From NCBI GenBank assembly GCA_001938485.1, contig MQRK01178987.1, positions 3,053 to 67,052 on the forward strand: a stretch of DNA of 64,000 bases. Direction: 5' to 3'. Source of the DNA: Girardia tigrina (lineage: Eukaryota). Below, in pieces: positions 24,590 to 59,290 of this stretch. The translations under genes and the position numbers were made by a program. Positions within the stretch are counted from its first letter, which is position 1, and every line of letters begins with the position of its first letter. The notes beneath the pieces are model-generated. The model worked only from the letters and a program-made list of their open reading frames with translations. It had not been told where the DNA came from and searched no databases.

Positions 24590-25175
24590 GGCTCCAATGT
24601 CAGACTGAAGCTAATTAATTGGAACGTCAGAGGTCTTAGTGACGAAAAGATAGTAAACCTATAATAAAAATACAGAAACCTCATCAAAGGCAGAAGCTCT
24701 TTTGTCTGCTATAGAAAGAAGTTCCTTCGTCATATAATTAATTGTTGCCAAAGATGTCGTCTCATTAACTCTTCCACTTGCAAAAGCCTTATGTCGTGCT
24801 CCCCTTCAAAACAAAATTTTCGTTGGCTCTGAGCCCCCATCCGCTTTTAGAGTTAAACAGTAACTCTAACTTTTACTACCTCTCTGCATAGACGTTAACT
24901 ACACTTGGGGAGCAGACGCGCCACCTTTGCTTACATAAACAAGTTGTGTAAACATTAGAGCGCCTTCGGCTTCTTGACCAGTATCGAGGATGACCCTACT
25001 GGTAACTCAGTTTCTTGAGGGGATGACTTTAACTTTGCTCACACAATTCATCAAGTTCGATTTTATTTATTTACTCCGGACAAGGATACCTTCGAGAAAC
25101 AAGTGACGGTCAGCCCACGTGCCCTTGTGCACGCTATGGTCTGCCTGCACCGTCTCTCTAAGATTTACCCAGACG
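24590..25175 (+). mobile_element. Internally deleted APE-type LINE with structured 3' region (copy A)
   Basis: LKLINWNVRGL (APE endonuclease N-terminus), a FLRHIIN thumb-like piece, C-terminal CRAPLQ..SEPP, then the conserved non-coding motif. Confidence 0.65.
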
Positions 25176-26459
25176 AAGTTCGATTAGTATTCATAAGCAT
25201 CTTTCGATTATACATATATTATATTTTACCTCGATTATATTTTAGTGACATTGTTTCGGAATTCAATTTACTCTTATAGTAGTTACAGGTAATTTTAGCG
25301 ATAGCAAGGGCAAGCAATAAGAGAACGAGAGTTGATCTTTATGATTTTGTAGGTGTGTAATAACAATTTTATTTTAAATTTATAATGATGCCTCGATGTT
25401 TAAAAACTTCAGGGGACATTTGCGACTCACAGTTAAAAGTCAAACAACTCCATATGATGTAGGATTCATTGAAAATCTAATCACCTTTCACTACGGTTAT
25501 CAACTCGGCAAAAGAGATTACATTTTAAGTTGAAGAAAAATTTGTGTAATTACGAACGTCTTAGCATCTGCCACAATGTATTCTTTCGCGATATTCATAC
25601 CTTATTATTTTGCTGATACTTTTCAATTCAAGATTCTAAAGACGACATATATCACTGAGGACTCCGACAAATATATATTTTTCATAAGATCTCGGTTATT
25701 TAAAGGCTCAATCGTATAACCTTAATCATTGCATGAGATCCTCCATCTCGGTTTCCTCACCAACATTTTTATTTTACTTATCAATCAATTAATGTAGCCC
25801 TGAAGAGGACTGTTTCACACATTTCTCATCTCTGATTGTGGCTGATTTAAGAATCCGCAGTTCAATTTACTCCAAGCATTTATTTCATTTTAAGTTCATT
25901 TTAAATAAATAATTTTAAAATAATTTTTAAATAAATGGTTTATAAATCAACTTTCCAAATAATACCTTTTAATTATTTTAAATATTTTAAATGAATAATT
26001 TTTTAAATTACATTTCAAATTATTAAATTTAAATACATTTTTAAATTTCCTTTACTGAGTGAAAGTCAGTTCAAAGTTATTACCAGCCTTTTATATAGTT
26101 ACAAGAATTAATATTCCGAAAATAAAATTAAGGAAATAATTAAAATAATTACAAGAAATTAAATATAAAATGAAAAGTATTAAATTGGAAATATTTAATT
26201 GGAAAACTCTCTTTAAAACTCAATTAAATTATATTCAATTAAAAATGATTAAAATAATTGAAAATAATTACGCAAGACAGAAACGGGTTAAATTAATTAT
26301 AAAATTATTATTAAATTACATTATTAAATTAAATTATTATTAAATTATTAAATTAAATTATTATTAAATTATTAAATTAAGTGTAAAATATTACAGGGTA
26401 AAGTTAACAAGATAAATTGAATAATTAAAGAAAACCGAAATTTAACATTAAAATTATTA

Positions 26460-27825
26460 TCGCCGTAAATTAAAGACATTCCCTGGTTGATTATCGTTTC
26501 ATTTTTATATACAGTTATTTACACGAACATTGCGACATGGTTACGCATCCGAATCCAAGGACCACCACACTCGATCCATTGGATGCGAAAGCGAACCACA
26601 ATCGCAATTCTGATTCTCAGACTCAAATAGCTCCTCTTCACAAAGGCATTTACTTTTTAGATATTTCAACATAGTGTTAGAGCAAGAATAGCAAAATAGT
26701 AAGTTATTAACTCAATTATTTTTCAAAGAATAATGGCAAATAAAATCAAACTTTCAATTAATGATATCATAATAAAGAGACATAAGATGTTTTAAATACA
26801 TATATTCAATGATGAAATATTAATAAAATAAATTAACTTTCTAAATAATTAACGATACCAAATTACAATATAATATTTATCAAAGACCACACGTAATGCA
26901 TAAATATACCTCCGAATTATTATCGTAAACCGTAATCGAGATTGTCCAAGAGTTTATCAAGCCTTTTCTCCCAAAATTCTCAATTAAAGATATTAGTTAA
27001 ATTTGCGTTGAAATTAATGTTCAAATAGTGTACTGTTGGAAATTAAATTAAAATTTTTCAAATAGAGTTGAAATTAAATCAAAATTTTTCAAAATGCGTG
27101 CCGTTCTCAAAATTGTGCTAAGTGTGTGAAGTATTCGAACCGATTCGGGCATTTATACCCTACCGGATACACGCAAACATTGATGGCTCGGCATCCTGTA
27201 TGCCGGTTACTGCGAGACAGGATGCGACAAAAGATGTCGTGATATCCTGGCAATTCGAATCAACAGATAAACAACTGTTGTTCTACGGCAGATTGCGAGG
27301 GGGAAGGGTATTATTGTTTTGTAAATTTCATTTTGTAAATTTTGTAATTTTCAGAACGATGTTTATGTTAGCTGTCCTTGCGGTCCTGACTACTGCAACC
27401 GACGAAAACTGGGCATCTGCGTATCGTGTGTCAACCGGTATCGTAGGTAATCGTTTATCATTCGGATTTTTCATGCTGACTGTTTATCGTTGTTTTAGCT
27501 TACTGCCGAGCTACCGCAGACACAGACAGTTGGAGGATGCCGTGATTCAGACTGAAATCAGGGTAAAAATTTTAATTAATCGAAAACTCTTAATTAATTT
27601 TCTCGGTTTCTCTTTTTAGGATTTCTACATTGTTTTGGCTGAACTGGTACTCATTCCCAAGGATCCTTCACTTTATTCTCCGTCCAGCACGCATGAAACC
27701 ATTTAAAACTAACGGGGATAGCCGAGCTTGACTATCCCCACAACTCTGACAAACTTTCATTCGCGCGGGATAATGTAATGGGTGAAATGGGTCTAGGTTT
27801 GTTGTACAAAATGTGGAACGTAACA
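26460..27825 (-). mobile_element. Long LTR-like element carrying an antisense spliced gene (left boundary uncertain)
   Basis: Minus strand starts TGTTACG at 27825; TATA GGGTATAAATGCCC at 27160-27147; shares promoter, hairpin and terminus with 53122-54679. Confidence 0.55.
27200..27706 (+). CDS. Hypothetical 116-aa Cys-rich protein, 4 exons
   Basis: Exons 27200-27307, 27355-27446, 27499-27562, 27620-27706; GT-AG introns of 47, 52 and 57 nt; spliced frame open throughout; CPCGPDYC..CVSC motif. Alternative start at ATG 27183 via a possible 23-nt intron. Confidence 0.6.
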
Positions 27826-37255: not shown

Positions 37256-39984
37256 CAGTGGCGTAGCGACTGTTTTTGGTGCCCGGGGCGGTCCTAAGAT
37301 TTATCGCCCCCCTAACCCTAACCCCTGATTCGGAACCATTAATTACTGTTTTTACTAAAAATTAAAGAGAGTCAGAAAATATTTACTTTAATTTCATATT
37401 TTTCTTGCAATACTCTTATTCTCATACTAAAAATTACCAAGTAACGAAGTCATTTAAAAATTTACAATTTTATTTACAATTTACAAGCGAACTTTTCGCA
37501 CTTTCAATTCTGCAAATTTATTGATAACAGTATCAAAATTCAGTTCAGCAGAAAACTCCCTCTCAATGTAGAGGACTACCAAGTCTGTAAGCCTTGATTG
37601 GCTCATTGTAGATCGGAGATAGTTCTTAATGAGCTTTAATTTAGAAAACGAGCGTTCGCAGCTGGCAACGCTAATAGCCCGGGTAAGAAAGATGCGCAGC
37701 AAAATCACAATATTATGGACGGAGTCTCCAAGGTAATATCTCTGTGTGAAGCTCAAAAGTTCTAAAGGTCCGTCAATTCTGTTATTTCCTGAAGCTCGGA
37801 CAAAATACTGCAGTCTTATTCTTTCGGCTAAGAATTCCTCTTTCTCCACCTCGTCTTCTATTTCACCAAGTTGGCAATCGTAATTATCATCATAGAGATT
37901 CGATGGTGCAATAACAGCATATCTGTTTGCAAGATCATGAACTTGTTGAAATCTTGAATATATTTCGTCTATCAACCTGTCTATGACAGACAGCATTTCC
38001 CGTCTCAACTCAGCATCAAATGTCATCGCTACATTAGTCGATCCCTCGCCATCCATTCTTTTTTTTTTGCGAATACGACGCTCCATACTAATCCCCATTT
38101 CAAAGCAGAGCTTTTTGGATTCGTCCATTGCACAGTCCACCATCTTTTCTCTATTCTTAAAAATGTTATCTCTCAGTGATATGAGCTAGACAGAACTTTG
38201 ATGCAGATCGAGCCCTTTTGTTTGAAGATACTTCTGGGCATCATTTATCTCTGGTAGAATGGAATTCCAAAGGTTCAAAAGCGATAGAAACGGAAATGAC
38301 AGTACTGATGATAGGAATAAAGATGCATCTGATCTTGTCATTAAATTTCTCTTTCCTTAATGAGCTTCTCTAGAGCAGTCATGACTTGTGATAATTTTTC
38401 CACCAACACATTTACAGCATATTCTTTCCCAGTTTAACTTTTACCAAATGTTCACGGAGCACAGGGTCATACTTGGCCAACAAATGAACCAATTCCAAAA
38501 AGTTTCCTCTATTTTCCTGGTCTCCATCTTCGTGGATGTCTTCTCGATGGCCCCTTAGTGCCAGGTTTTGCGAGAAGAGAAATCTGATGATGTCCAGTAA
38601 TCTAGCTAGACTTTCTCGCCATTTCTTAGTCTCCTTCTCAATTAATTCTTCCTCTACTTTGTTTATTGCCTTTCCATTAGCGAGCCGGATCTTAAGCTCC
38701 TTCCACTTGAGGAATGCCTGCGCATGCGATGCGCTAACTTCGTGCTCATGAACTTTAGGATTTAATTTCCACCAGTTCTTAAAGCCTTCTTCAGTAGAAA
38801 AACTAGACAGCCTAACTGAAAACAGTCTGCTGCAAAAGTAGAACAGGGACTCCTTTGAAGGAGAATACACCATCCATGTTCTCATACTTTTCTCTCCATT
38901 CCGTAGATCACGAAAAACCATTTTTGGTTAGCTTTCTAGTGTTACCTTTTGTCCTTGTGCCTGGTCGTGGTACTTCTTTGAATTAACAATGAAGGTGCTG
39001 CATAGAAGTATATCCTTGACGAACAAGCATAGCGCGAATTTCATGGCTAATCTTAACTGACCAAAGACGTAAAAAATCACTGTAAAATCACTTATAAAGT
39101 ATGTTTTCAGAGTGATTAATTGGTGCATTTCTTGTGCTTCAATTTCCCTCTCATAAACTTCTGCATCAATGCCAACTTCACCTTCCACAGTAACAGTATC
39201 GACTTCAATTGTAGCATTAGCAATATCAAATTTATCCACAGTCTCTATTGGATTATCGTCCTTTTAAACGACGAATTGGTTTTACCGTATTAAATAAGAA
39301 TAAATACAATGCAATATCCAAATTTTTTTAACAAAATCGATTTTTTTAATTTTCAATTCTTTTCAGCTTCATAAAAAAATCAAATTTATTTGCTAAAAAA
39401 GTAATTATTTAAAAAAAAATCAAAAATTTAAAATTAAAAAAAATGACGATTTTTTTACGGTAAGTATTGCTTACGTATTTTTTTCTTATGTACTTTTTTA
39501 TAAATTAGTGGGTACAAGTTGTGCTGAACAACAATTACAATACTTTGACAGCGGATATTAAGTATTAATTAATCAATTAATTGTTTTTTTTAACGATTAA
39601 AATGTTTTAGCTTAATCAAAATTATAACCACATACTTTATACATGCTTTTGAAATTAAGCACTAATTTACAGACATACAAAGTAAGAAAATGCAATCAAA
39701 TAAAATCTAATAACCGGAAGTATTTAACTGAAATACAAAAATCAAAACATTGTCATGTAACGGTAAAGAATTTGTGCATATCTGGTAAGAGACAAATCTT
39801 CCAACCCATTGGCAGTTTTCATTAAATTAGTTCAGTTTAACATTCTGTTATGTCCAGCATTTATGGTCAGATTTTTCTTCGTTTTATTTTATACATAATA
39901 TTTCTCCCATTCACAAATGCCGCCACCAACAGTCGTGCCGCCCGGGGCAGATCGCCCCCTCCGCCCCCCTACGCTACGCCACTG
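37256..39984 (-). mobile_element. hAT transposon (Tip100/ZMYM1-like), degenerate transposase
   Basis: TIRs CAGTGGCGTAGCG / CGCTACGCCACTG; 8-bp TSD CAGACTAC; ORFs 38412-38921 (LALRGHRE..NRGNFLEL) and 37481-38143 (SVASCERSFSKLKLIKNYLRSTM). Confidence 0.95.
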
Positions 39985-40067: not shown

Positions 40068-43000
40068 TGTAACAACGAATCACAAATCTATAAAATTTAT
40101 TTTTCACTAACAAATGCTTTTTAAATAGATATTATTTAAACAAATAATTATCTATATTTTTTCATGTTAAATATTTCTTTTAAGAAATAAATTTAACATG
40201 TAACACTCCCACCATATTCTTCGTCACAAGAATCTATATCTACCACATACTCGTTCAAATATTTCGGTTTTCGTCTTTCTCTTTGGGGTCTGTTACTGAT
40301 TCCCGATTCACTTTGCTTAACACTCGGAGCTGGTTCGTTGTTATTTTCCAACATGTAATCCGAGTAAGAGTTTCGCGGCAGATCTGGTTGTCTTGGTCGA
40401 ATATCTCCTATATGCCGTGGACCGCAAAAACCATCACAATTTATTAAGTACTTTCTTTGATCCAATTTTCTAACGACAACGCCTCTTGTCCATTGCTTTG
40501 TACATGGCATATTATTTTCAGGCTTTGCCCAGACTAACTGTTGCTCTTTATCTTATTGTAAACCGGCTCTTTTTCAATTCTTTCGATTACCTCCAAACCC
40601 ACTGAAATGTACTTGTAAAGTCCTGATCTAGGTGTCTCCTTTCCGTCGGATGGTGTATTTTTATACCACCATAATGCTTCCATGATACTGATATTTGATC
40701 GAGATGCAATTCTCTTGATTGTCTTATGATTTCTCTCTATTATTCCGTTGCAATTTGGTCGATTAATAGCGCGGTATAGGACTTGTACATTCCACTTTTC
40801 CATCAACTTTCTGAATTCGGCTGAATGAAATGTCGTATAATTGTCAATAATCAACTCCTTTGGAGATCCACGCTCGCAGAACAAATTTGAAAACTCTGTA
40901 ACAATCGACTTGACATCCTCAGCAAGTCTTGTCCAGTTTTCATTGACAGCTAATTTTCCAGTTTCCCATTTTATTGGTGCCGGATCAATAGATTGACAAC
41001 TTTGACACTTCGAGATCAAATCCTTTATATCCGCATTTGACACATTTATTTCCAACTTATCGCACAGATATCGCATTCTCTTTACACCTAAATGACATCT
41101 GTCATGAAGTTTCTGTAGTTTGAATATGTCATCTGTTACAGACAAAAGGCAACTGCTTCGTTTTAATTGTTTGGGCATTCTTGTCAGTTCAACAGCCTTG
41201 TTGTCTTCACTATTAACAAACTCAATTTTCAAAGTTATTTCGTATTCCTGGCACAACTCCTTAATCATTGACAATCGGTGCTTTATCAAAAGCTCGGAAG
41301 AGGCATTCGTGTGTAATTTATTTCGCTCTGATAGTGCCTCAGTTATCAAAGAAACAACTGATTTGTTATCTGATTTTACTACAACATTCGTTAGTCCCCA
41401 TTTAATACACAGATTTAGACCCTTTACAACTGCTTCTAGTTCTGCTACGTTTATGTGCCTAGAATCATCAGTTTTCATTAACCATGATGCGTTTTCTATA
41501 ATATTTCCTTTAACTTCCAATGCTGCCCCAATGGCTATCGAACTGGCATCACACCATATGATGCCGTCTTTACAATCACCAATACTCCATATCCCTCTAC
41601 AAGGATCTTCCGCCTTAACTTTTTTCAAAACAAATTTGATCTTCTCGAATAATTCGACATCTATTTTCTCATCCCATTTTCCTTCACTGAGCCTTTTCAT
41701 GTAGGAGCATGATGAACGTAGCCAACCTGCAACAGGGTGGATTCCTACTAATTGGCCACACAGCGAATATAACTCGCGACGCGATATTGATTCGGCAACT
41801 ATCTCGTCCTTGAAATGATTCTCTCTCATCCATCTCACCGAATTCTTATCTCTAAAGACTTTAACTCCCAACACTCGCACCTCTTTATCCATTGAGAGTT
41901 TCTGGTTTTTTGCATTTTAGACTAAATTTCTCGAACAGCATTCTAATTTCGTCAACTATGATTTCAGATTCGTCAACGTAAATGTCATTGATGTACGAGT
42001 CGGTGTTTTCACGTGCTCTAGGATCAGAATTTAAAATCCACTTGACAATTTCAGTCATAATGGTCGGAGCGATATTTATGCCAAAGCTCATCCTGGTTAG
42101 AGCGTACTTTTTTCCATTAATGACACATGATTGATAACGCCACATTTCCTTGTGAACGCGAATCTGCATATACGCCTCTGATAAATCAAGCATGGAAAAT
42201 CTTGATCNNNNNNNNNNNNNNNNNNNNNNNNNNNNNNNNNNNNNNNNNNNNNNNNNNNNNNNNNNNNNNNNNNNNNNNNNNNNNNNNNNNNNNNNNNNNN
42301 NNNNNNNNNNNNNNNNNNNNNNNNNNNNNNNNNNNNNNNNNNNNGGTATAGATCCTATCGATTTACCCATTTCCTTCTCGTCATAATCGATTAAATAACC
42401 CTTCTTCATCCACTCCTCAAGGATTTTCATTGTAGCTATGTCTTTCGATTTGTCATCCTTAAAGATCGAATGTCGAATTGGTAGATAACTCGGCGCTTCA
42501 TCTTTCCACTTCCATTTAACCATCCAATTATCCTTAAATTCAATCTCATAATTGTGTTTGTTCAGGCTAACTCTTGGCACAACACCCGTGACACAACTCA
42601 TATTGTCACCAGCCTTCTTTAGTCCTTCTCCTACACACACACACCAAATTCGATAACACCCTTATTAATTTTCACACCCCAAGTTCACTTATAACATCCA
42701 TACCAATTAAAATTCCCAAATCATAGGGTAAGTATTTCATGACAGAACATTCNNNNNNNNNNNNNNNNNNNNNNNNNNNNNNNNNNNNNNNNNNNNNNNN
42801 NNNNNNNNNNNNNNNNNNNNNNNNNNNNNNNNNNNNNNNNNNNNNNNNNNNNNNNNNNNNNNNNNNNNNNNNNNNNNNNNNNNNNGTTTTTGAGCAACCC
42901 GAATCTATTAACGCTGTAACCGACTTGTTGTTAACAATGACAGTCATGGTTGGCAGCGCCGGAAATGTCAGAGGGAGAGAGCCGGCGCCTACAAACTCCC

Positions 43001-43875
43001 CTGTACTTTTTTCGACTTGCAATATTTTGCAATATGTCCAACTTGCTTACATTCATAGCAAATTATTTGTCCATTCGATTGCCGCTGAAAATTTTCATTA
43101 CGGTTTACCCTTGTTTGTACCAGATTTCCGTCATGTGGCACACGGGGTTTTGTAAAGGAACTCCTTCTACCGCCGCTGACCTCACCTCGTTCTTTAGAAA
43201 CGATCTTTCCATCACCAACGTTTTGTACCGCTGACATTGAACTTTGTGTGACACATTTTTTTAATTCCTAAATACCTACGACTATATTCAACCATTTCGG
43301 TTAAATCTTGATCGCCGACCTGCTCTAAATTCAATTGCAACTCGAACGGCAATCCAGTCATAAAAGCCGCCTTGGTCAGATCGTCAATTTTTGATGCCAA
43401 CATCTTTACTTGAGAAACGTAATCGTCAATAATTTGTCCTTCGTAATATTTCAAATTAAGCAGTTGGCTGTACGCAGATCGTCTGGTTAATCCGAATGAA
43501 TTGTCCAAGATTTGCAGTACTTCTTCACAGTTGCTCTGTTTCTTTTCATNNNNNNNNNNNNNNNNNNNNNNNNNNNNNNNNNNNNNNNNNNNNNNNNNNN
43601 NNNNNNNNNNNNNNNNNNNNNNNNNNNNNNNNNNNNNNNNNNNNNNNNNNNNNNNNNNNNNNNNNNTGCCGTTTCCATTAAATTTCTCCAAATGATCGAG
43701 TATAATTTTTAAATCGCTTATCATTGCCCGGATAGCTTGTAACAACGAATCACAAATCTATAAAATTTATTTTTCACTAACAAATGCTTTTTAAATAGAT
43801 ATTATTTAAACAAATAATTATCTATATTTTTTCATGTTAAATATTTCGTTTAAGAAATAAATTTAACATGTAACA
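40068..43875 (-). mobile_element. LTR retrotransposon (Troyka-like): gag-PR-RT-RH-IN between 138-bp LTRs
   Basis: LTRs 40068-40205 and 43738-43875 (TG..CA, one mismatch seen); 4-bp TSD TTCA. Motifs CYECKQVGHIAKYC, ALIDSGCS, LDLSEAYMQI, YINDI, CDASSIAIG..HINVAELEAV, HDRCHLG..CQSC and NGIIERNHKTIK. Frameshifts and gaps present. Confidence 0.95.
43726..43737 (-). promoter_or_regulatory. Primer-binding site complementary to tRNA-Lys(UUU) nt 1-12
   Basis: AGCTATCCGGGC abuts the 5' LTR; its complement GCCCGGATAGCT is the 5' end of metazoan tRNA-Lys(UUU). Confidence 0.8.
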
Positions 43876-43963
43876 TTCATATAAATTTTAACATTTCAAA
43901 ACAGTTTTTATAAAATATTCAAATCAAATATTAAAATTATTGACGATGATGTATGATATTTCT

Positions 43964-44524: not shown

Positions 44525-44836
44525 ACTAATTAATAATCAATTCACCTGTATATAATACAAAAAATGATGATTATGTAACCGATTACATGAAATCATGCTA
44601 ATCAAAAATTCTCAATAAGCTGGTTGAGACTGCCGATAGAACATTGATTTGTAGGGCAACGTGACCTAATCAACAATGCTTCACACGACACTCCCAATAA
44701 CTGTCAAAATGATTACACAGAATTTTGAAATTATCAAAATTAACATCACATTTTCACTTTTTCCTATGTTCTGCAATATTACTCTTACTCTCTTTTCGAC
44801 CATGTTCTTGAATTCATTTACAGAGATGACGGATAT

Positions 44837-47643
44837 GTTGCGTTAGAATCAAAATTTAGTAAAAACATATAAAATTTAAGTATCGATTTAAACAAAATAA
44901 TCAGAAATATCGTAAAACATAAAAAACAAGAGAAATCACACAATAAACATAAGAATCGTAACAAATCAGCAACAAAAAGTGTTAAAATGTATATAAATGA
45001 GATAAAAAGTGTAAATATTGGCGGAAAAGTAAATAATTACAGATAAATAATTGATAAAATCAGAATAACGCGCGCAAATGAATAGATAAAAATCCGCAAA
45101 AATAATGACAAATTCCCAAATAATTTTACGAGCAAAATAAAACAAAAATTACGAAATTCCGTTAGGAATTCGCAGAAAAATAGCAAAATTGAAGTAAAAA
45201 TAATAAATAAATAATCGATAAATAACGATTAATTAACGGATTTGAATGAAATAAACAAATAAAATAGTCGGAAAAATCATGAAAATACTCGTAAAATACC
45301 AACAGATAATAAAAGATCATAATTACACCGAAAAACGAGAGAAAATAGCGAATTAATACAAATAGTATAAATTGGAACATCGCCAAATAAAGAAATAACG
45401 ATGAAAATCTCACAAAATGAAGACGAAAAATTCATAAAATAATCGGAAAAATCGTAGAAAAATCAACAAGATGTGAAAACGTTATAATCAACACTAATCG
45501 ATCAAGATTTCGAATGAAAATAATTGAAAATTAATAAAATTGTATTTTACTGCAATATTGTGACCAAAAAACGTAAATATGAATGAAAATCGATCGATCA
45601 GAGCGGAAAAAATTCGTAAAAATTATGATAAAAATTATGCGATATAAATCATGAAAAAATACGCAGTGAAAATAGAAAAATACGAAAAGAAACATAAAAA
45701 AATCAATTAAATCGAAAATCATTCAAAATAATCAATCAATGAGTCCAATACTATGCGGACGCCACTGAAACAGATTCCAAGCGATGTAGAACAATGTAAA
45801 AAGCTGCAAAAATGTAATAATGATAAATATCCATCGAAGCCGCAATAAATTATAAATTGGAAATATATCAAACGGAATGAATTAGATGCGGGAAAAATCT
45901 AAAAAATTATTCAAAAAATCAGAAATAAATAGATTAACGGAAATCATNNNNNNNNNNNNNNNNNNNNNNNNNNNNNNNNNNNNNNNNNNNNNNNNNNNNN
46001 NNNNNNNNNNNNNNNNNNNNNNNNNNNNNNNNNNNNNNNNNNNNNNNNNNNNNNNNNNNNNNNNNNNNNNNNNNNNNNNNNNNNNNNNNNNNNNNNNNNN
46101 NNNNNNNNNNNNNNNNNNNNNNNNNNNNNNNNNNNNNNNNNNNNNNNNNNNNNNNNNNNNNNNNNNNNNNNNNNNNNNNNNNNNNNNNNNNNNNNNNNNN
46201 NNNNNNNNNNNNNNNNNNNNNNNNNNNNNNNNNNNNNNNNNNNNNNNNNNNNNNNNNNNNNNNNNNNNNNNNNNNNNNNNNNNNNNNNNNNNNNNNNNNN
46301 NNNNNNNCCGTTGGAATCCGGAAACGCGGTTTGAAATGCGCGCGCAGGACGTCGTCACCGATGAGATACATTTGGTTTGGTTAAACAATCATCATCCGAA
46401 GGTCCGGAAAAAGGCTGAAAAGATTAATAAAATTAGTAAAATTAAAACAAAACAAATGTACATACCGGATTAATCATCGATCCAAAATTTTCTAATTCTA
46501 GAAAGTCCAAAAATGGAACTGACGTGTTCCAATCGAAATTGGTCGTACGATTCCAAAACGTACGTGGACCAATTAAGATTCAACACGCGACAATTTTAGA
46601 CTGAAATCTTGGTATAAATACCGAGCAGTTTTTGACANNNNNNNNNNNNNNNNNNNNNNNNNNNNNNNNNNNNNNNNNNNNNNNNNNNNNNNNNNNNNNN
46701 NNNNNNNNNNNNNNNNNNNNNNNNNNNNNNNNNNNNNNCTAGGTTGGTATTGTTAGAATTTTCGCGTCCGAGAGGGAAAGTAATGGATTACTCTCTCTCT
46801 CGGGTCCCGAACATTTAAATTTATTTTACCGAGCGGTCGGTCCCCCGAATATTAATTATGTTTATTTTGTTATTGTTAATTATGCCTATGCTAAATAGGT
46901 CATTTTATTATCCAATTATATTTTATAATCATTATTTTATTTTAAATATTTCTTATGGTCAATTTCAGCTCGAATACTCTCGGGTAGGGCAACCCTTAAA
47001 ATTATTTTATTAAAATTCTTGAAGGCTGGTTCCGGAATGCATTTTTGCGCGGCCAGAATAAGTCCCCGGTTTATGAAGTCTCTGAGTGACAACAAAGCTC
47101 AAGAATTCATACCGGAAGGCAGTTTCGGAATCCGACTGCTATCTTTCATGACCGCTTACGTAGAATAAGGCTTAAATAATAAATCATCAACTCCTATTTT
47201 AACCGTTGTAATTTTAGATGATGATACAAGAAATAGAATTACGAGAAGCTAAGAAAACCATTGAGAGATTGCAGCAAGAAAACAAAGTGTTAAGAAAAGC
47301 CAGGGCGACAGATCGCCAAGAGATATTGAATCTACGAGATAGCGTGGAGATCTTATCGATGAAGTTAAAAGTGACTAAGGAAGCCTCCATCAAGCCTGAT
47401 GAATACGCTCGCGTAGTAAGACGAGGCGTAGCAATGGAAAGTCGCATTCGAGAGCTCGAGCGATTATACTCCGAGCAGTTGCGGCTCCGCATGAGGGAAA
47501 AGTTAAGGGCCGACGAAGGGAAAGAGTCGCGCACCTTAGGCACTCAATGGTGTATAACAGATTATCGCGGAGAGGATTATGTCAATAGATGAAAACGACA
47601 AAGGCTCCGTAAGAGCATAGACAATGTAGTTAAGTGTTTTACA
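44837..47643 (+). mobile_element. Long LTR-like element with TATA box, antisense intron and sense ORF (boundaries uncertain, gapped)
   Basis: GGTATAAATACC at 46611; minus-strand 51-nt intron 46465-46415 (GTATGT..TACTAAT..TTTTCAG); sense ORF 47218-47592. Confidence 0.45.
47218..47592 (+). CDS. Hypothetical 124-aa coiled-coil protein
   Basis: Intact E/R/K/L-rich ORF with heptad-like pattern; ATG directly follows TTTTAG, a splice-acceptor-like site. Confidence 0.5.
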   Translation: MMIQEIELREAKKTIERLQQENKVLRKARATDRQEILNLRDSVEILSMKLKVTKEASIKPDEYARVVRRGVAMESRIRELERLYSEQLRLRMREKLRADEGKESRTLGTQWCITDYRGEDYVNR

Positions 47644-47984
47644 AAATAAAATTTTGATATGAGTTTTATATGAGTTGTTGATGTATTATTTATAAAATAT
47701 TTCATGCACTGATTAGTTAAAATTTTGTTAGCATTTCTTTCTTTTTCTATAACTCTTTATTTTGACACCAAAATCACATACATGAATGGAGGATTCGCGT
47801 CAGGGTATTCGAGCCCCATACTTTTGTAAATAGTTTTATAATGATAAAAATATTAAAAGATGAAATGTTGTCATAGCTCTTATACCAGTTAAGGGGGTTC
47901 AACATAGTAAAATATAACATACAGTAATTGGGGTTGACACAACACATCATGGGGTTACTGTATCAATGAAATTGTTTTAATCTA

Positions 47985-48216
47985 ACATCACATCATACCC
48001 ATTAGGGCTGATCTGGTCTATCTGGTCTTAAACCTGTGTAGATCTGGAACCTGGAAGGTCCTCATCACTTATCACTGCGTGCAGATGGTATGCTGGGTGA
48101 GAGGCAAGTTGTGGTCATAGATATTGAGAGAGGAGGAATTAAAATGTACATGCAGAGGTTGTATTAGTATGATAGTGTTTTTGGTTGGTTACCGATAACC
48201 TGGGGGCTCAAAGCCA
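47985..48216 (-). mobile_element. LINE 3' structured region (copy E, most diverged)
   Basis: GGCTTTGAGCCCCCAG, CCATCTGCACGCAGTG..GAGGACCTTCC and GGGTATGATG blocks. Confidence 0.55.
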
Positions 48217-48280
48217 AACGACTCAGTTACCCAAGATATGTTCATATGTTTTTAAACACCACACAACCACAACAGATAGT

Positions 48281-48586: not shown

Positions 48587-49959
48587 AAGTATTTTATCTA
48601 CTGTTTCCTTTATTAATTTAATAAAGGAAAAAATAAATTTTTTGCGATATTATTTACTTGATGAGAACCACAAATACATAATAATCAATAAGACGAACTA
48701 AATTTCAAAATTTATTCTTATTTAAAAAGTGCCCACTTTTTGTTTCTTTACACAAAAAACCTCAGGAGATCTTATTCAGAATATTTTGGATCCATTATTA
48801 TAATATTGTAGATGTTATCGGAGTATAGTAAAAATAATGTAGATATATAGTTATTTATCCTTATACACAGAAAACCGTGAAAAAGCTGTCGACCTTGTGA
48901 TACGAACAGACTTTGAAGTGCAGTTTCCGCTTTTAATAAAGCATCCATATCGATTTCCGACGCAAGAATTAACGTTTAGCCGTCTCAGTAATTGTGTACA
49001 TGAACTGTCTCTATATCTTTTGACATTCAACCAAACCGTCCAATCCAAAACCAATAAAAAAATTTTCCACTTTTAAAAACGTTTTCACCCTTTTTTACTC
49101 AACAAACTAATAAGATCTCAGTCACGCCTACAATTTTTATTGTATATTTTTTTACACTTTTTCCCGCAATAACAATCAAAATTCAATTAATCCGTTGAAA
49201 CAATGAAAATTAAAAATACAATTACCAGTCATACAAAAAAATTTTTTAAATACATATTATAACATAATTATGAAGGTTGTGGGGGATTCTTTTTTCTTTG
49301 GATATCTCTACTTTTAGTAAAAAATTCCACAGAACAATAATAAATATTTATTCCAAATAAACTGTAATTACAATTATAAAAACAATCTATATTTAAATCG
49401 ATTTTTTAAATCTTTTATATTTAATTTTCATATTTATATAATATAAAAAGGTCACTACAAAGGCCATAGACCTATTTTATTCTTTTTTAATTTCAAAATT
49501 TCAACTTTATAGATTAGATTATTATTTCATTTATTTTTTATTTTACATGACCTTTTTTATATTTTTGATTGAAGTTAAAGTTGACATTAAAATCAGTCGA
49601 AAGAAAAAAGTCATTTAACTGAATGTTTCAATAAGTGGTTGACTTTGAATTGTAGTTTAAAGTTGTTAGGAATTTGTGTCTATTGAATTATTAAAGCAAA
49701 CGTTTCTTATTGAATGCTTTATTGATTTTTATTGTCGGTAGTGACTCCAGATTCGTTTGTCTTTTTTTGTGTTTGATTTAGAAATTCAATTTGTCTTTCT
49801 TCTTTATATAAATGTTCATTTGTATTTTCGTAAATCTACATCTTATTTTCTCATACGATCTCTAATCGTATCGAAATCTTGTTCGTTTGGTTTACTTACT
49901 TTTTCAATAGTATCGATCGGCACAAAAGAATTCATATATATTTGGTTGATAATTGCATC

Positions 49960-50345
49960 AATATGTCGTGCTCCCCTTCAAAACAACATTATTGATGACT
50001 CTGAGCCCCCATCCGTTTTCCATTAGAGTTCAACGGCTACTCTATCAAACTAAGCTAATTACATTTCAATGGGGAACAGACGCGACTACTTTGCTTGCAT
50101 CAACGAATTGTGCAAACATTAGAGCGCCTTCGGGTTCTTAACCAGTAACGAGGATGACCCGACTGGTGGCTGAGCTTCTAGAGGGGATGATAATAATTCT
50201 ATGCTACGATTATAACCTTATCGACGCGCTAACACTTGAAACTACAGGAAACGAAGAGAGCCTCAAGAAAGAAAATGACGAGCGGTCCGCGTGCCCCTTG
50301 CATGCTGCAGCCGGTCGGCATCACCCTCCCAAGGTTCCTCGCCCA
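49960..50345 (+). mobile_element. LINE 3' end with structured region (copy B)
   Basis: Aligns with 24792-25175 with compensatory changes. Confidence 0.7.
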
Positions 50346-53121
50346 AAAAATTGAAATTCATCATATTATTTAGGTTCGATCTCTAAACTAATCTATTAAA
50401 ATAATAATCAAGGTTCTCACAAAAGAAATTACTAAATTAAAATTATAAGTAAGTAAACTAATGTCCACTTTTCTCTAAATACTCGACGATCTTCATCCTA
50501 AGGCAATCGGATTCAGGTCATTTACAAGACTAAAGTTAACAATAATTCTATTTTTAACAGATAAAAGATTTTAAACAATAATTTTGACACTTAATTATGG
50601 GACCTAGAACCTCTTTTCAATGTTGTGGGGAGTTGCTTGTTGTCCACTCCTGTATGAAGGTATACAAATACTTACTAATGACTGTCGAAAATAGAAAACA
50701 TAATATCCCCAAATATATAAAATGTTTCTTTTTCATTTATTTATACGCTGGGTTCACCAAGATCAAAACAAGTAATTGTCGAATTTAACAATGAGACGAT
50801 TAAGTTAATATGATAAATCATTATTTATACTGCAATAAAAGTATAATTGAATTAATCATTATTCATAAAAGTTTACTAAAACTCAGAAGAGTTTGAACAG
50901 CTAAATAACAAATTCTAACAACTACATATTATGTCTTCGAATATAAGAGTATATATTTTTGTTAGGGTTCTGAAAAAATACATGTGAACACTTTTGAAAA
51001 AATTTTATATAGGAAATTTTTAAATAATTCTTTTAGTAAAATTAGTAACTTCAAATAAAATAATATTTAGTCTAACAAAACTTGGAATTAAAATTANNNN
51101 NNNNNNNNNNNNNNNNNNNNNNNNNNNNNNNNNNNNNNNNNNTGTTTTATCTCATCAATTTTCAAGGCTGAGGAAAATTACTATATAAACAACATCAAAT
51201 TCAGTCTTAGTTTGCCCAAAAATATTTGCAAGAAATTTTAACTGAAGAGAATTGTTCGTAAGTAGAGTAATTATTAATATTTACTTTATATTTTTCAAAG
51301 TTGAATAAAACCTGTAGTACCCTGTATGGGAGAACAAGGTTTATAGAAAAGTTTTAAGTTTAAATCAAAGCATCGTTCGTTTTGGGAGNNNNNNNNNNNN
51401 NNNNNNNNNNNNNNNNNNNNNNNNNNNNNNNNNNNNNNNNNNNNNNNNNNNNNNNNNNNNNNNNNNNNNNNNNNNNNNNNNNNNNNNNNNNNNNNNNNNN
51501 NNNNNNNNNNNNNNNNNNNNNNNNNNNNNNNNNNNNNNNNNNNNNNNNNNNNNNNNNNNNNNNNNNNNNNNNNNNNNNNNNNNNNNNNAAGATAAAAGAT
51601 TATTGATTAAAGAATAAAGAAAAGAGATTTACGATTAAAGATAGAGATTTAAGATTTGTATTTTAAAAAGTGAATAATCGATTTAAAGATAATTTTTAAT
51701 AATTAAAACCCCAACATTTTGAATTCAATCGTATAGATAAAACAAATAGATTTAAAACTAGATTATAATTAGAACCAACGAGGAAATGAGACCTAAAGAC
51801 ATAAGTCGAAAACATTCTATCGTTAAAATGATCAATACTATTCAAATCTATTTTGTTAATAACAAGTTTTACGAATATATAAAGGTTAGGATACTCATTG
51901 CTAATGTCATTTTGCGTTGAATAAACGAAGCTATCTAACATAAAATTGAGTTATTATACACTTGACTTATACTTCTTAATAAACTAAATGAGGATAAAAT
52001 TTTTACACTCATAACTCATTGAACTTTGCAACTTCAACGATTGAATATATACATTTATTCGAATTCCACACTAACATTTGTAACATAAAAGACAATGCTA
52101 ATATATAAATTTGTTATAACAAAACTATTTAAAGTTAGACGAATTGCATAAAAATTTATTAAAATTAAAATTTCATTAAATAAAATATGTATAAAAAAAT
52201 TAATAAGTCAAAACAAAATAATTATTAAAAGAGGGTTGGATGTCCGCATATTGTTAGGGTTTCGTGAATTACATCGTCGGTGATTGATACGTCGGTCTCA
52301 GATGATTATTCAAGGAGTTTGTGTTTATCTAATGATTTATTCTAGTACGATATCTCGTAAATTCCGATAAACCTCTGTTTTGAATATTGTTCGATAATCC
52401 GTAAGTCTCTGTTCTAGTTTTTTGTTTAAATTTTCATTTCTCTTTTTGGTGGCGCTTCTAATTGAAATTATTCTGTCTTTTAAAGAAGTTTTGACTACTA
52501 GACAGACAGGTGTATCTGAACTTGCATATACAATGTATTTGGTGATTATTTGGTGAATGCTCTGTCACTCTGTGGTTAGGTGAGTGCATGTCAGAATTCT
52601 GTAGGCTGTTGTTAGATTCTATAAAATCTCTGAATTGAATAGTTGACTTTTGCGATTGTCTGTATGTATGCGTTTGATTAATTTTGTTCATTTTCAGGTT
52701 ATTCATCAGCTGACCTCGTTTTGGAAAATCACAAGTTACTTATCAGAGGATTTCTTATTTTCGTTATATACGCGTCATTGATTATTTTGTCCGATTATTA
52801 TAAATCTTTATTATCTTTTATTATCTTTTTCAAATAGTGATTTTCAAGTGATGTAGTAATGCTAAAGGATTTACGGTAAACAACATTAATTTTAGAGTTA
52901 TTTTAAAATTATCAATAATAGAAATATAATATCGATGTGATAATAATCATATCCTGTCTCCGAATGTGGACAAGTTAATTCCATAAACCTCATGTGATGT
53001 ATTTAAACTGAAATATTGTCAATGTTTATAACATAGAAATAAAACCATAATGAAACGAAATAAATTAAGCCTTAATACGCGCCATTGGCATTACAATTTG
53101 TGTAACAGATTTATTTAAAGG

Positions 53122-54679
53122 TGTAAGACATTTTAAACACAAAATTATTTATTCATCGTCATACACTAAAATCAACGAAAATCAAAATTAGGCTTTTGAC
53201 CAACTTTACTAAATTTTAATAACGAAATATTATCATTAATAGGTATAAAATCTGGTCAATGAACTCATTCATACTAGTATACATATTAATACCAACACAA
53301 CGCTTTAATCCACCTTCTATGTACATAGCTACACTTTCCGACACTCTCCACACTTCCTACTTTGCTACAACTTCAACACTGATAACTTTCACCTTTATTC
53401 GCTTTCTCGATCCACACTTCCTCCATCTTTCTATCGTCGCATCACATCTACTCCTCTCGCATTTCTCTCTCACTCCTCTACAACTACGACGGCACCAAAT
53501 CGTCCTCTCAACCCTCCTCGACATCTACAGAGCTCGTATGGTGGTATTAAATGATAGTAGGTGAGAGTGACCAGATAAAAATCATATATCAAATCAATAA
53601 GTCAAATAAGTTATTAAATATCGTATATTGAATCGTAATATAGAGTTAATGAGTCAAAATAAATCGTTACAATGGTTAAAATGATAATAAAAAAAACAAA
53701 ACGAAATCAATTACAATGGTTAAAGTGATAATAATAATAAAAAAACAAAACGAAATCAATAGACTGAGGTATGAACTAAGATAGGGTTACCTTTTCGATA
53801 ATTCGACAAGTACTGCTAGCAATAATTGATTGGTAATCAAAATTTATAAGGTTTTCCTCTTCTCCGCAAATCGGTAAATTAAATTGAAATATGATTTAAA
53901 TGTAATTGGCTCGATCCAATCAAAGTTTATAAAATCTTCTTCTTCTCCCAAATTCAAGGTTTATAATATCTTCTCCTTTTCCCAAATTTAATTATCAAAA
54001 TTAAAGTATATCGTCAAAATTACAGATAATACTGTGCACTGGCTTTTGGTGCGAGCCGGTTCGGGTATTTATACCCTACAGGGAATTCGAAGCGTCCTGT
54101 TTATGAATCGAGTTAAGGATAGTGTCAACATCCGTAAGTTGGTCTTCAAAATGTCGGTTCGGCGAATTCGTAGGGCGTCCTGTTTATAGGAAGGTTAAAG
54201 AAGACAATGTCGATCGTTACCTTCGTAACATCCTGCTTAGCGGTGGCAGCATCTATGTCGGCGCGTGGACCAACGATGTTTATCGTTTCGACAAACTTGG
54301 CAAGGTAAACTATTAGTATGCGTTTCCTAATTGTTTATACTTATTCAAGGTCTACTATAATGATGTCGAGACAGCGATTTCGCTTTGGATTAGGTGAATT
54401 TAATTCTAGTAATTAAGATTTTTTAATTAAGAAATTTTTAACTTTTCAGATTATTCAAGCAAGCCAAAAAGAACGAAATCTCATACCGACTCGGCATTTC
54501 AACAAGCTGAGAGTCAATTTAAAAACATTTGAGGATAGTCGAGTTTGACTATCCTCAAACACTCGGAACACGGGCTCTCATACGTAAGGGGTGTTGGGTT
54601 TGGGACAAGATTTATATGGTGATATCTCGGGAGATATAGTACAGGAAAGGGTCTGTATAATTGTTTCTTTGTCGTAACA
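53122..54679 (-). mobile_element. Long LTR-like element carrying an antisense spliced gene
   Basis: Ends TGTAAGACA..TGTCGTAACA; TATA GGGTATAAATACCC at 54076-54063; degenerate minus-strand ORF from ATG 53524 directly after CTGTAG. No TSD found. Confidence 0.55.
54103..54532 (+). CDS. Hypothetical 90-aa protein, 4 exons
   Basis: Exons 54103-54133, 54190-54304, 54350-54393, 54450-54532; GT-AG introns of 56, 45 and 56 nt; spliced frame open. A second frame is also open over exons 2-4. Confidence 0.5.
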
Positions 54680-54835
54680 AATATTCAGTCTTCATACATT
54701 TACCCATGTATCTGTTTATCTTAATTCTTATTCGACACTCTTCAGAACAATTATTGATAGCTCCCGGGCGAATCGAACAATCAATTTTCCTTTCTTAAAT
54801 GTTTTAATTTCAATATTTTATTCAATACAAGACGG

Positions 54836-58972: not shown

Positions 58973-59290
58973 TCAATTTATTTGTGAAATCAAAGTTTTG
59001 TCAGTCTGATTGCAAAGAGCCTCAATTTCCAAACGTGAACGCACCAAATTATCACTCAAACACTCAACGGTGCCGCTTTCTGTCATAAAAAAGTCGTCTT
59101 CCAAACGCATTCCGATTCCTCTGAATCGAGGATCAACTTGTTCGTCATTCTCAGAGAAATATATGCCGGGTTCGAGAGGGAATACCATGCCCGATTGGAG
59201 TGGCTGACTAGTGGACACAGTCGGGGTGTCGTGAATGTCTAGTCCGAGATAATGACCGATATGGTGTGGACAATATTTCCGGATATTCTG
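58973..59290 (-). CDS. XPNPEP3: Xaa-Pro aminopeptidase 3-like (peptidase M24), terminal exon
   Basis: RKYCPHHIGHYLGLDIHD, LEPGIY and FRGIGMRLEDD metal-ligand motifs. Splice acceptor near 59288 or 59306; upstream exons not identified in this window. Confidence 0.88.
   Translation of the reverse strand, partial: QNIRKYCPHHIGHYLGLDIHDTPTVSTSQPLQSGMVFPLEPGIYFSENDEQVDPRFRGIGMRLEDDFFMTESGTVECLSDNLVRSRLEIEALCNQTDKTLISQIN

What the first reader, a model, noticed from the sequence alone, without database searches (positions are those of the whole stretch)
27135..27825. LTR-like elements with a two-way TATA box that carry their own spliced antisense mini-genes
Seen: 27135-27825 and 54050-54679 share three landmarks with dissimilar sequence between them. 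These are CGARCCGRTTCGGGYATTTATACCCTAC (near-palindrome; TATAAAT on minus, ATTTATA on plus), a hairpin at the stop codon, and the terminus CGTAACA (TGTTACG, an LTR-type start, on minus). Between promoter and hairpin each has a 4-exon plus-strand gene with 45-57 nt GT-AG introns that splices into an open frame (116 and 90 aa). A third element has GGTATAAATACC at 46611 and a clear antisense intron at 46465-46415. Inference: a U3-like region hosts intron-containing accessory genes transcribed opposite to the genomic RNA, so their introns would survive reverse transcription. This would be a variable cargo slot in a conserved LTR frame.
Basis: partly seen in the sequence, partly recalled or inferred. 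Interest (0 to 1): 0.8.

Follow-up and report, generated by a model that had tools for sequence, protein, structure and literature searches.

The report
Retroelement ends with conserved backward introns
These are leftover end-repeats of a retrovirus-like jumping gene whose control region keeps short intron signals on the reverse strand in most lineages examined; they likely make a spliced reverse RNA that regulates the element rather than the small proteins first proposed.

Summary
The landmarks are real, but the flagged 630-690 bp pieces are only the U3 parts of two solo LTRs (24792-27825, 49964-54679; 4-bp TSDs) of a high-copy Gypsy/Metaviridae family, probably in a planarian. Antisense GT-AG intron signals (median 52 nt) occur in 39 of 44 U3 types, against 1 of 44 on the sense strand. 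The coding claim fails most tests. The 116-aa frame is private to this copy (dN/dS 0.95; controls 0.24 and 0.13). Several loci of another subfamily share frameshifts but keep their splice sites. The last exon has no fixed frame or stop. U3 middles are mosaics of repeated short motifs. Best reading: a spliced non-coding antisense RNA across the U3 enhancer, like Drosophila HeT-A/TART or BLV AS RNAs. No RNA evidence was obtained, and the two-way TATA is untested. The third element is a solo LTR of a separate Burro-like family; it lacks the hairpin but holds a sense coiled-coil exon under purifying selection.

The parts
24792..27825 (-). Solo LTR 1 (3034 bp), TGT...ACA, TSD CTTA; sense strand is minus
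   Evidence: orientation
27130..27825 (-). U3 of LTR 1 (boundary near 27130 inferred from the TATA box)
   Evidence: PPT precedes this end in other copies; homology blocks break near 27129
27147..27160 (.). Promoter palindrome holding the sense TATA box (TATAAAT on minus); antisense use untested
27308..27354 (+). Predicted antisense intron 1 (47 nt); donor sits 1 nt earlier in 7 of 12 copies
27447..27498 (+). Predicted antisense intron 2 (52 nt)
27563..27619 (+). Predicted antisense last intron (57 nt) with TTAATTAA pair; the family-wide conserved intron
27200..27706 (+). 116-aa spliced frame, private to this copy, no sign of selection
27716..27737 (.). Conserved hairpin about 100 nt inside the LTR start, with compensatory stem changes across types; acting strand and role unknown
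   Evidence: no Rfam match
49964..54679 (-). Solo LTR 2 (4716 bp, longer than sister copies through extra sequence in R/U5), TSD AATA
54063..54076 (.). Promoter palindrome / sense TATA box of LTR 2
54134..54189 (+). Doubtful antisense intron 1 of LTR 2 (56 nt, not AT-rich, not called by the blind scorer)
54305..54349 (+). Predicted antisense intron 2 of LTR 2 (45 nt); acceptor lost in 2 of 7 copies
54394..54449 (+). Predicted antisense last intron of LTR 2 (56 nt)
54533..54554 (.). Conserved hairpin of LTR 2
53357..53524 (-). 55-codon sense frame after an AG in R/U5 of LTR 2; selection not shown (dN/dS 0.67, another frame lower)
44836..48274 (+). Third element: solo LTR (3439 bp, TSD GATA) of a separate, Burro-like family with the same PBS and TATA context
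46415..46465 (-). Predicted antisense intron (51 nt) in U3 of the third element
47218..47592 (+). Sense coding exon in R/U5 of the third element, 124 aa, predicted coiled coil, dN/dS 0.13

Best explanation
The two flagged pieces are the U3 regions of solo LTRs of a high-copy Gypsy/Metaviridae retroelement family, and their reverse-strand intron signals likely belong to a spliced, non-coding antisense RNA that probably acts in cis to keep the U3 promoter/enhancer active. Shown: LTR ends, TSDs, PBS, PPT, pol domains, strand-specific conserved intron signals, lack of a conserved reading frame, motif-rich mosaic middles. Inferred: RNA polymerase II transcribes U3 backwards from at or upstream of the TATA box; the host spliceosome removes one to three introns of about 52 nt; because these introns are antisense, the genomic RNA keeps them and reverse transcription copies them; the variable 'exons' are enhancer modules that recombine freely, so only splice signals, hairpin and promoter are held by selection. 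The benefit is inferred to be splicing-coupled support of the promoter or protection from silencing.
For: LTR identity: 4-bp TSDs in 8 of 13 automatically ended LTRs, plus element 1 by direct reading; one miss is a 5' LTR followed by the PBS. PBS after the far end in 7 of 30 loci. PPT before TGTTACG, 149 hits vs 43 control, with shared internal sequence upstream. RT, RNase H and integrase in that order on one stretch ending in PPT and LTR (L217). Introns: 54 antisense calls in 39 of 44 U3 types, 1 sense call, 3-8 in shuffles. Symmetric test anchored on the palindromic TTAATTAA block: donor plus acceptor in 22 of 38 types antisense, 0 of 38 sense; 6 types had no anchor. Same arrangement in a second family. 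Non-coding: last-exon length mod 3 is 0/1/2 in 14/10/13 of 37 rows called, of 50 rows. Element 1 family: frame 12-133 aa over 12 copies, pairwise dN/dS 0.95 vs 0.24 for the post-integrase ORF and 0.13 for the third element's exon; by exon, the most open frames give 0.82-1.87. L204 subfamily: an 8-nt exon deletion shared by 5 loci and a 2-nt insertion shared by 3 loci give three different frames while both introns keep GT-AG in all 26 rows. Enhancer-like content: CAGGAT 79 vs 9.5 expected, TGTTTA 111 vs 19.8, TAATTA 120 vs 11.2. Precedent: non-coding multi-intron antisense RNAs of HeT-A and TART (PMC2615633, passages), spliced BLV AS RNAs from the 3' LTR (PMC4855707, abstract and section 5), splicing linked to enhancer activity (PMC7035876, one-sentence abstract and section titles only).
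Against: No spliced RNA was seen. Long spliced frames are somewhat in excess: 7 of 44 types at p<0.05, combined p 0.0008, although this includes element 1 itself and the types are mosaics of each other. Element 2's 90-aa frame is open in 5 of 7 copies with dN/dS 0.58 on few changes. Most copies are decayed, which weakens any test of selection. The intron scorer was hand-tuned on these sequences. The last intron carries a TTAATTAA pair that could be kept as a DNA-binding site. No poly(A) signal follows the hairpin (AATAAA in 1 of 182). The cis benefit rests on analogy only.
Confidence: 0.6

Rival explanations
1. One reading: U3 is a cargo slot for small antisense protein genes that differ between subfamilies.
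For: 116- and 90-aa frames each beat 99.3% of shuffles with introns fixed; 7 of 44 types have long spliced frames; the 90-aa frame is open in 5 of 7 copies; LTRs of this kind can hold real coding exons (third element).
Against: Element 1's frame depends on indels private to that copy and donor 1 is shifted by 1 nt in 7 of 12 copies; dN/dS 0.95; shared frameshifts in the L204 subfamily; a 10-nt last-exon indel between element 2's family and its sister; no fixed stop; no Pfam match for single exons.
Confidence: 0.13
2. The spliced antisense RNA works in trans as a source of piRNA/siRNA or as an antisense partner that limits the element's own copying.
For: HeT-A and TART antisense RNAs are tied to the rasiRNA pathway (PMC2615633, passages); planarian transposon piRNAs are mostly antisense and LTR elements are PIWI targets (PMC8532177, passages).
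Against: No small-RNA data here; selection for self-silencing in about 40 lineages is harder to explain than a cis benefit (inference).
Confidence: 0.15
3. The AT-rich blocks are DNA elements (homeodomain-type sites, nucleosome-excluding tracts) that only look like introns; nothing is spliced.
For: TTAATTAA palindromes sit inside the last intron in most types; no junction evidence is in hand.
Against: GT donor, T-rich AG acceptor and 43-75 nt spacing are strand-specific around a strand-symmetric anchor (22 of 38 vs 0 of 38); extra introns without TTAATTAA occur; a second family shows the same.
Confidence: 0.1
4. The U3 exons are 5' leader exons of an HBZ-like antisense mRNA that continues from the 3' LTR into an ORF in the internal region.
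For: HTLV-1 and BLV antisense RNAs start in the LTR and splice into the internal region (PMC10186651 passages, PMC4855707); two loci hold antisense ankyrin and exonuclease ORFs next to family sequence (L166, L219).
Against: No antisense ORF of 140 aa or more recurs next to the PPT in 19 loci listed; the L166/L219 cassette continues on both sides of the LTR piece in L219, which suggests nesting.
Confidence: 0.05

Closest known systems
Drosophila HeT-A and TART antisense RNAs (PMC2615633, passages read)
   Same: Retroelement with close sense and antisense promoters; antisense RNA non-coding and multi-intron; introns vary between copies; role unresolved.
   Different: Those are non-LTR telomeric elements and their RNAs are shown by RACE. 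Here the introns lie inside an LTR U3, one intron position is held across about 40 diverged types, and the RNA is only predicted.
BLV AS1/AS2 and HTLV-1 hbz (PMC4855707 abstract and section 5; PMC10186651 passages)
   Same: Spliced antisense transcripts from the LTR; the BLV ones are probably non-coding.
   Different: They start in R/U5 from TATA-less promoters and splice out of the LTR into the internal region; here whole short introns lie within U3, in a Metaviridae element.
Burro / GYPSM1 giant Gypsy elements of planarians (PMC6431247, section 7 read; the original paper was not held)
   Same: Gypsy-type, long LTRs, accessory ORFs. The third element's PBS is followed by a zf-TRAF plus MATH ORF, like the upstream MATH_TRAF accessory ORF described for a Dugesia tigrina Burro; it shares PBS and TATA context with the main family.
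   Different: The main family has no MATH ORF after the PBS, and its membrane-protein-like ORF follows the integrase, whereas Burro has env between gag and protease. The section read says nothing of antisense introns in the LTR.
Plant antisense additional ORFs (Grande gene23, RIRE2, Retand; PMC7264820, passages read)
   Same: Extra antisense information in Gypsy elements.
   Different: Those are long conserved ORFs between pol and the 3' LTR, not in U3; the word intron does not occur in that review.

Membership tests
Gypsy/Metaviridae LTR retroelement (main family) | TG...CA termini with short TSD | tested here: met
   4-bp TSDs at both window elements and 7 other loci
Gypsy/Metaviridae LTR retroelement (main family) | PBS after the 5' LTR and PPT before the 3' LTR | tested here: met
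   PBS in 7 of 30 loci; its likeness to a tRNA-Pro 3' end is recalled, not tested; PPT
Gypsy/Metaviridae LTR retroelement (main family) | pol order PR-RT-RH-IN | tested here: met
   RT E 1e-30, RNase H, integrase in order in L217; protease hit weak (E 0.005, below cut-off) in L220; nearest RT relatives 42-53% identical, nearly all unnamed
Gypsy/Metaviridae LTR retroelement (main family) | Two LTRs flanking one complete internal region | tested here: inconclusive
   5' and 3' junctions found on separate contigs only; assembly of 255,254 contigs
env-bearing Metaviridae | Envelope ORF homologous to a known fusogen | tested here: inconclusive
   Post-integrase ORF with hydrophobic segments and a basic tail, dN/dS 0.24; no Pfam hit, no longer homolog, 4 unnamed relatives, fold pLDDT 29.5
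Burro (main family) | env between gag and protease in one giant polyprotein; MATH/BIR/BCL2 cargo | tested here: not met
   Membrane-like ORF follows integrase; ORFs after the PBS have no such Pfam hits
Burro (third element) | MATH_TRAF accessory ORF upstream of the polyprotein | tested here: met
   455-aa ORF after the PBS: MATH E 2.8e-32, zf-TRAF E 5.6e-06; similar ORF in 4 of 5 PBS loci
Burro (third element) | Giant polyprotein and >30 kb length | not testable with these tools
   Contigs end or are gapped within a few kb of the PBS
HBZ-type antisense accessory gene | Conserved antisense ORF under purifying selection | tested here: not met
HeT-A/TART/BLV-type spliced non-coding antisense RNA | Splice-consensus introns on the antisense strand without a conserved ORF | tested here: met
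HeT-A/TART/BLV-type spliced non-coding antisense RNA | Antisense transcript, start site and junctions shown in RNA | not testable with these tools
   No run on record as RNA holds the stretch; only contigs could be laid

The most novel reading that the evidence does not exclude
U3 of these planarian-type retroelements is a spliced antisense transcription unit in which enhancer modules double as exons and are shuffled between lineages, with some lineages turning the slot into translated micro-proteins; together with the sense coding exon in the Burro-like LTR, the LTR would be a two-way gene cassette.
Probability: 0.15. Interest if true: 0.8.

Novelty: new variant of a known kind. Interest (0 to 1): 0.5.

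Why it matters
Introns in antisense RNAs of retroelements were called enigmatic in the HeT-A paper (PMC2615633). Here one intron position persists across about 40 diverged U3 types and appears in a second family while the exon sequence is shuffled. That natural series could separate a role of splicing itself from a role of the RNA sequence. It would also show LTRs carrying exon-intron structure through reverse transcription, and that hundreds of solo LTRs may seed spliced transcripts into neighbouring host DNA. The sense coding exon inside a Burro-like LTR is a separate lead on LTR-borne accessory genes.

Tried and rejected
RNA evidence: no RNA holder listed. Contigs of X1 (RNA status a guess) laid on 49900-54800 showed no joint at the predicted introns and one unspliced contig over 54227-54447; X2 laid nothing. 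Sense RNA or DNA would look the same, so this is no evidence. Helitron or DNA-transposon end: rejected by TG...CA ends, TSDs, PBS and PPT. Host paralogs with shared UTRs: rejected, flanks diverge exactly at the LTR ends. Frameshift cassette (slippery site plus hairpin): rejected, the heptamer is not conserved. Histone-type or other known RNA: no Rfam match at the hairpin. Strand of the hairpin: not resolved. Post-integrase ORF: fold failed, no named homolog, Atlas gave no answer. Short sense frames in R/U5 of the main family: dN/dS 0.67 and 0.84, other frames lower, not accepted as genes. Host intron control: only one usable example, 47 nt, too little to count. Full-length element: not found on one contig. 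The coiled-coil model was not sent to a fold search. Literature: searches listed no paper on antisense introns inside U3 of a Gypsy element; the library lacks most subscription papers, and the original Burro paper and its supplements, which may describe LTR transcripts, were not held. Factor names for the motifs (ETS-, forkhead-, homeodomain-like) are recalled, not tested. Coordinates in notebook entries 1 and 3 were off by 1-7 nt and are corrected.

Full report
Observation. The promoter palindrome, hairpin and CGTAACA end are at the stated places in both elements. The introns are GT-AG and splice to 116 and 90 codons. The motifs are not chance: the exact hairpin pattern has 921 matches and the promoter pattern 448 in the 1.43-Gb genome, with 0 for the reversed controls. 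Of 67 promoter hits followed up, 36 had the hairpin within 1100 nt, 8 were cut off or gapped, and 23 had none within 4 mismatches; a more diverged hairpin variant exists.

What the elements are. Homology runs far left of the flagged pieces to a shared end beginning TGTCGTG. The elements are 24792-27825 and 49964-54679, flanked by CTTA and AATA duplications. An automatic tally found 4-bp TSDs in 8 of 13 complete LTRs; element 1 was mis-ended by the script, and one miss is a 5' LTR. On the strand that starts TGTTACG, the far end is followed by a shared PBS in 7 of 30 loci picked by a CCA pattern. The TGTTACG end is preceded by a recurrent purine tract (149 matches vs 43 control) and by shared internal sequence. 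That internal region encodes RT, RNase H and integrase in Gypsy order, then a long ORF with hydrophobic segments and no named homolog. No contig held a whole element. The host is probably a planarian: the sister family looks like Burro (below) and earlier scan notes on this genome say flatworm.

The introns. I collected 79 U3 regions in 46 types. A scorer blind to reading frames called 54 antisense introns in 39 of 44 gap-free types, median 52 nt, against 1 on the sense strand and 3-8 in shuffles. The scorer was tuned by hand, so I added a symmetric test anchored on the palindromic TTAATTAA block: donor plus acceptor in 22 of 38 types antisense and 0 of 38 sense; 6 types lacked the anchor. The last intron, some 75-165 nt before the hairpin, is the conserved one. 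The hairpin shows compensatory stem changes and no Rfam match. No RNA data could confirm splicing or a two-way TATA box.

Are they genes? Mostly no. In element 1's family the frame from the same ATG is 12-133 codons over 12 copies, the window copy differs by private indels, and 7 copies have donor 1 shifted by one base, which also voids the 133 value. Pairwise dN/dS in the window frame is 0.95, against 0.24 for the post-integrase ORF. By exon, the most open frames give 0.82-1.87 and frames with low values hold stops in 11-12 of 12 copies. Last-exon length mod 3 is 0, 1, 2 in 14, 10, 13 of 37 rows called, of 50. In a compact subfamily with two textbook introns, an 8-nt deletion shared by 5 loci and a 2-nt insertion shared by 3 loci give three different frames while GT-AG is kept in all 26 rows, two pairs of which are the same locus. 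Against this: both window frames beat 99.3% of shuffles with introns fixed; 7 of 44 types have long frames (combined p 0.0008, types not independent); element 2's frame is open in 5 of 7 close copies with dN/dS 0.58 on few changes. Its first intron is doubtful and a sister subfamily differs by 10 nt in the last exon.

What the variable middle is. The middles are mosaics of modules swapped between types, rich in CAGGAT (79 vs 9.5 expected, 38 of 44 types), TGTTTA (111 vs 19.8, 37 types) and TAATTA (120 vs 11.2, 41 types). From recall these resemble ETS, forkhead and homeodomain sites. This fits an enhancer array; planarian Gypsy elements are expressed tissue-specifically (PMC8532177, passages).

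Mechanism. Shown: anatomy, orientation, strand-specific intron signals, no conserved frame. Inferred: the U3 promoter also transcribes backwards, the RNA is spliced, the antisense introns survive reverse transcription, and selection keeps splicing because it supports the promoter or shields it from silencing. I put this at 0.6. Rivals: small-RNA source 0.15, coding mini-genes 0.13, intron look-alikes 0.1, HBZ-like leader 0.05.

Third element. It is a solo LTR at 44836-48274 with TSD GATA. It has no hairpin match in 24 copies but the same TATA context and an antisense intron. Five of 8 hits for its end plus TGG carry the same PBS as the main family, followed by a zf-TRAF plus MATH ORF, which matches the upstream accessory ORF described for a Burro element (PMC6431247, section 7). 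Its R/U5 holds a sense exon (47218-47592) with dN/dS 0.13 over 11 copies, 8 relatives at 72-95% identity and a predicted two-helix coiled coil. This is the one LTR-borne protein exon that passed the tests, and it is sense, not antisense.

Comparison. The closest working analogues are the non-coding multi-intron antisense RNAs of HeT-A and TART (PMC2615633, passages) and BLV AS1/AS2 (PMC4855707, abstract and section 5; PMC10186651, passages). Plant antisense ORFs lie between pol and the LTR (PMC7264820, passages). ORFs and antisense starts in retroviral LTRs are known (PMC2664473, passages). Nine searches listed nothing on antisense introns within U3 of a Gypsy element, but the original Burro paper was not available. 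The scan's index had no look-alike.

Verdict. Observation partly confirmed; interpretation right on LTR, U3 and antisense introns, probably wrong on mini-genes. New variant of a known kind; interest 0.5, limited by the lack of RNA evidence.

Noticed in passing
window 47218-47592 (+): Sense coiled-coil exon inside R/U5 of a Burro-like solo LTR, after an AG, under purifying selection (dN/dS 0.13), with metagenome relatives of up to 147 aa and no Pfam hit above cut-off. Upstream exon not found.
   Followed up: partly
L405:871-2238 (G000:C235068): RING-like/zf-TRAF/MATH ORF of 455 aa directly after the PBS of the third element's family.
   Followed up: partly
window 40068-43878 (-): Separate small LTR element with 141-bp LTRs 99% alike, TSD TTCA, RT, DUF7047, RNase H and integrase zinc-binding pieces.
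   Followed up: partly
L166:24-4653 and L219:4801-8467: Ankyrin plus RNase T-type exonuclease cassette lying antisense to family sequence at two loci; probably a nested element.
   Followed up: partly
window 53357-53524 (-) and 26540-26672 (-); L230: Short sense frames in R/U5 of the main family, some after an AG with a donor-like site upstream, hinting at a sense intron in R; selection not shown.
   Followed up: partly
L210:3171-8500: The integrase frame runs on into a hydrophobic segment and a long, broken, membrane-protein-like ORF with only four unnamed relatives.
   Followed up: partly
about 15-30 nt upstream of the PPT in L181-L227: A second conserved inverted repeat just before the PPT in most 3' junctions.
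   Followed up: no
window 37481-38927 (-): hAT transposase pieces.
   Followed up: no
window 58973-59280 (-): Last exon of a host M24 (aminopeptidase P-like) gene.
   Followed up: no
L111 (R/U5 of one LTR copy): Insert with a frame resembling a ribosomal protein fragment (likeness recalled, not tested) inside an LTR copy.
   Followed up: no
G000: Dozens of loci match only positions 1-82 of Cpn60_TCP1, as if a chaperonin fragment were carried by a repeat.
   Followed up: no
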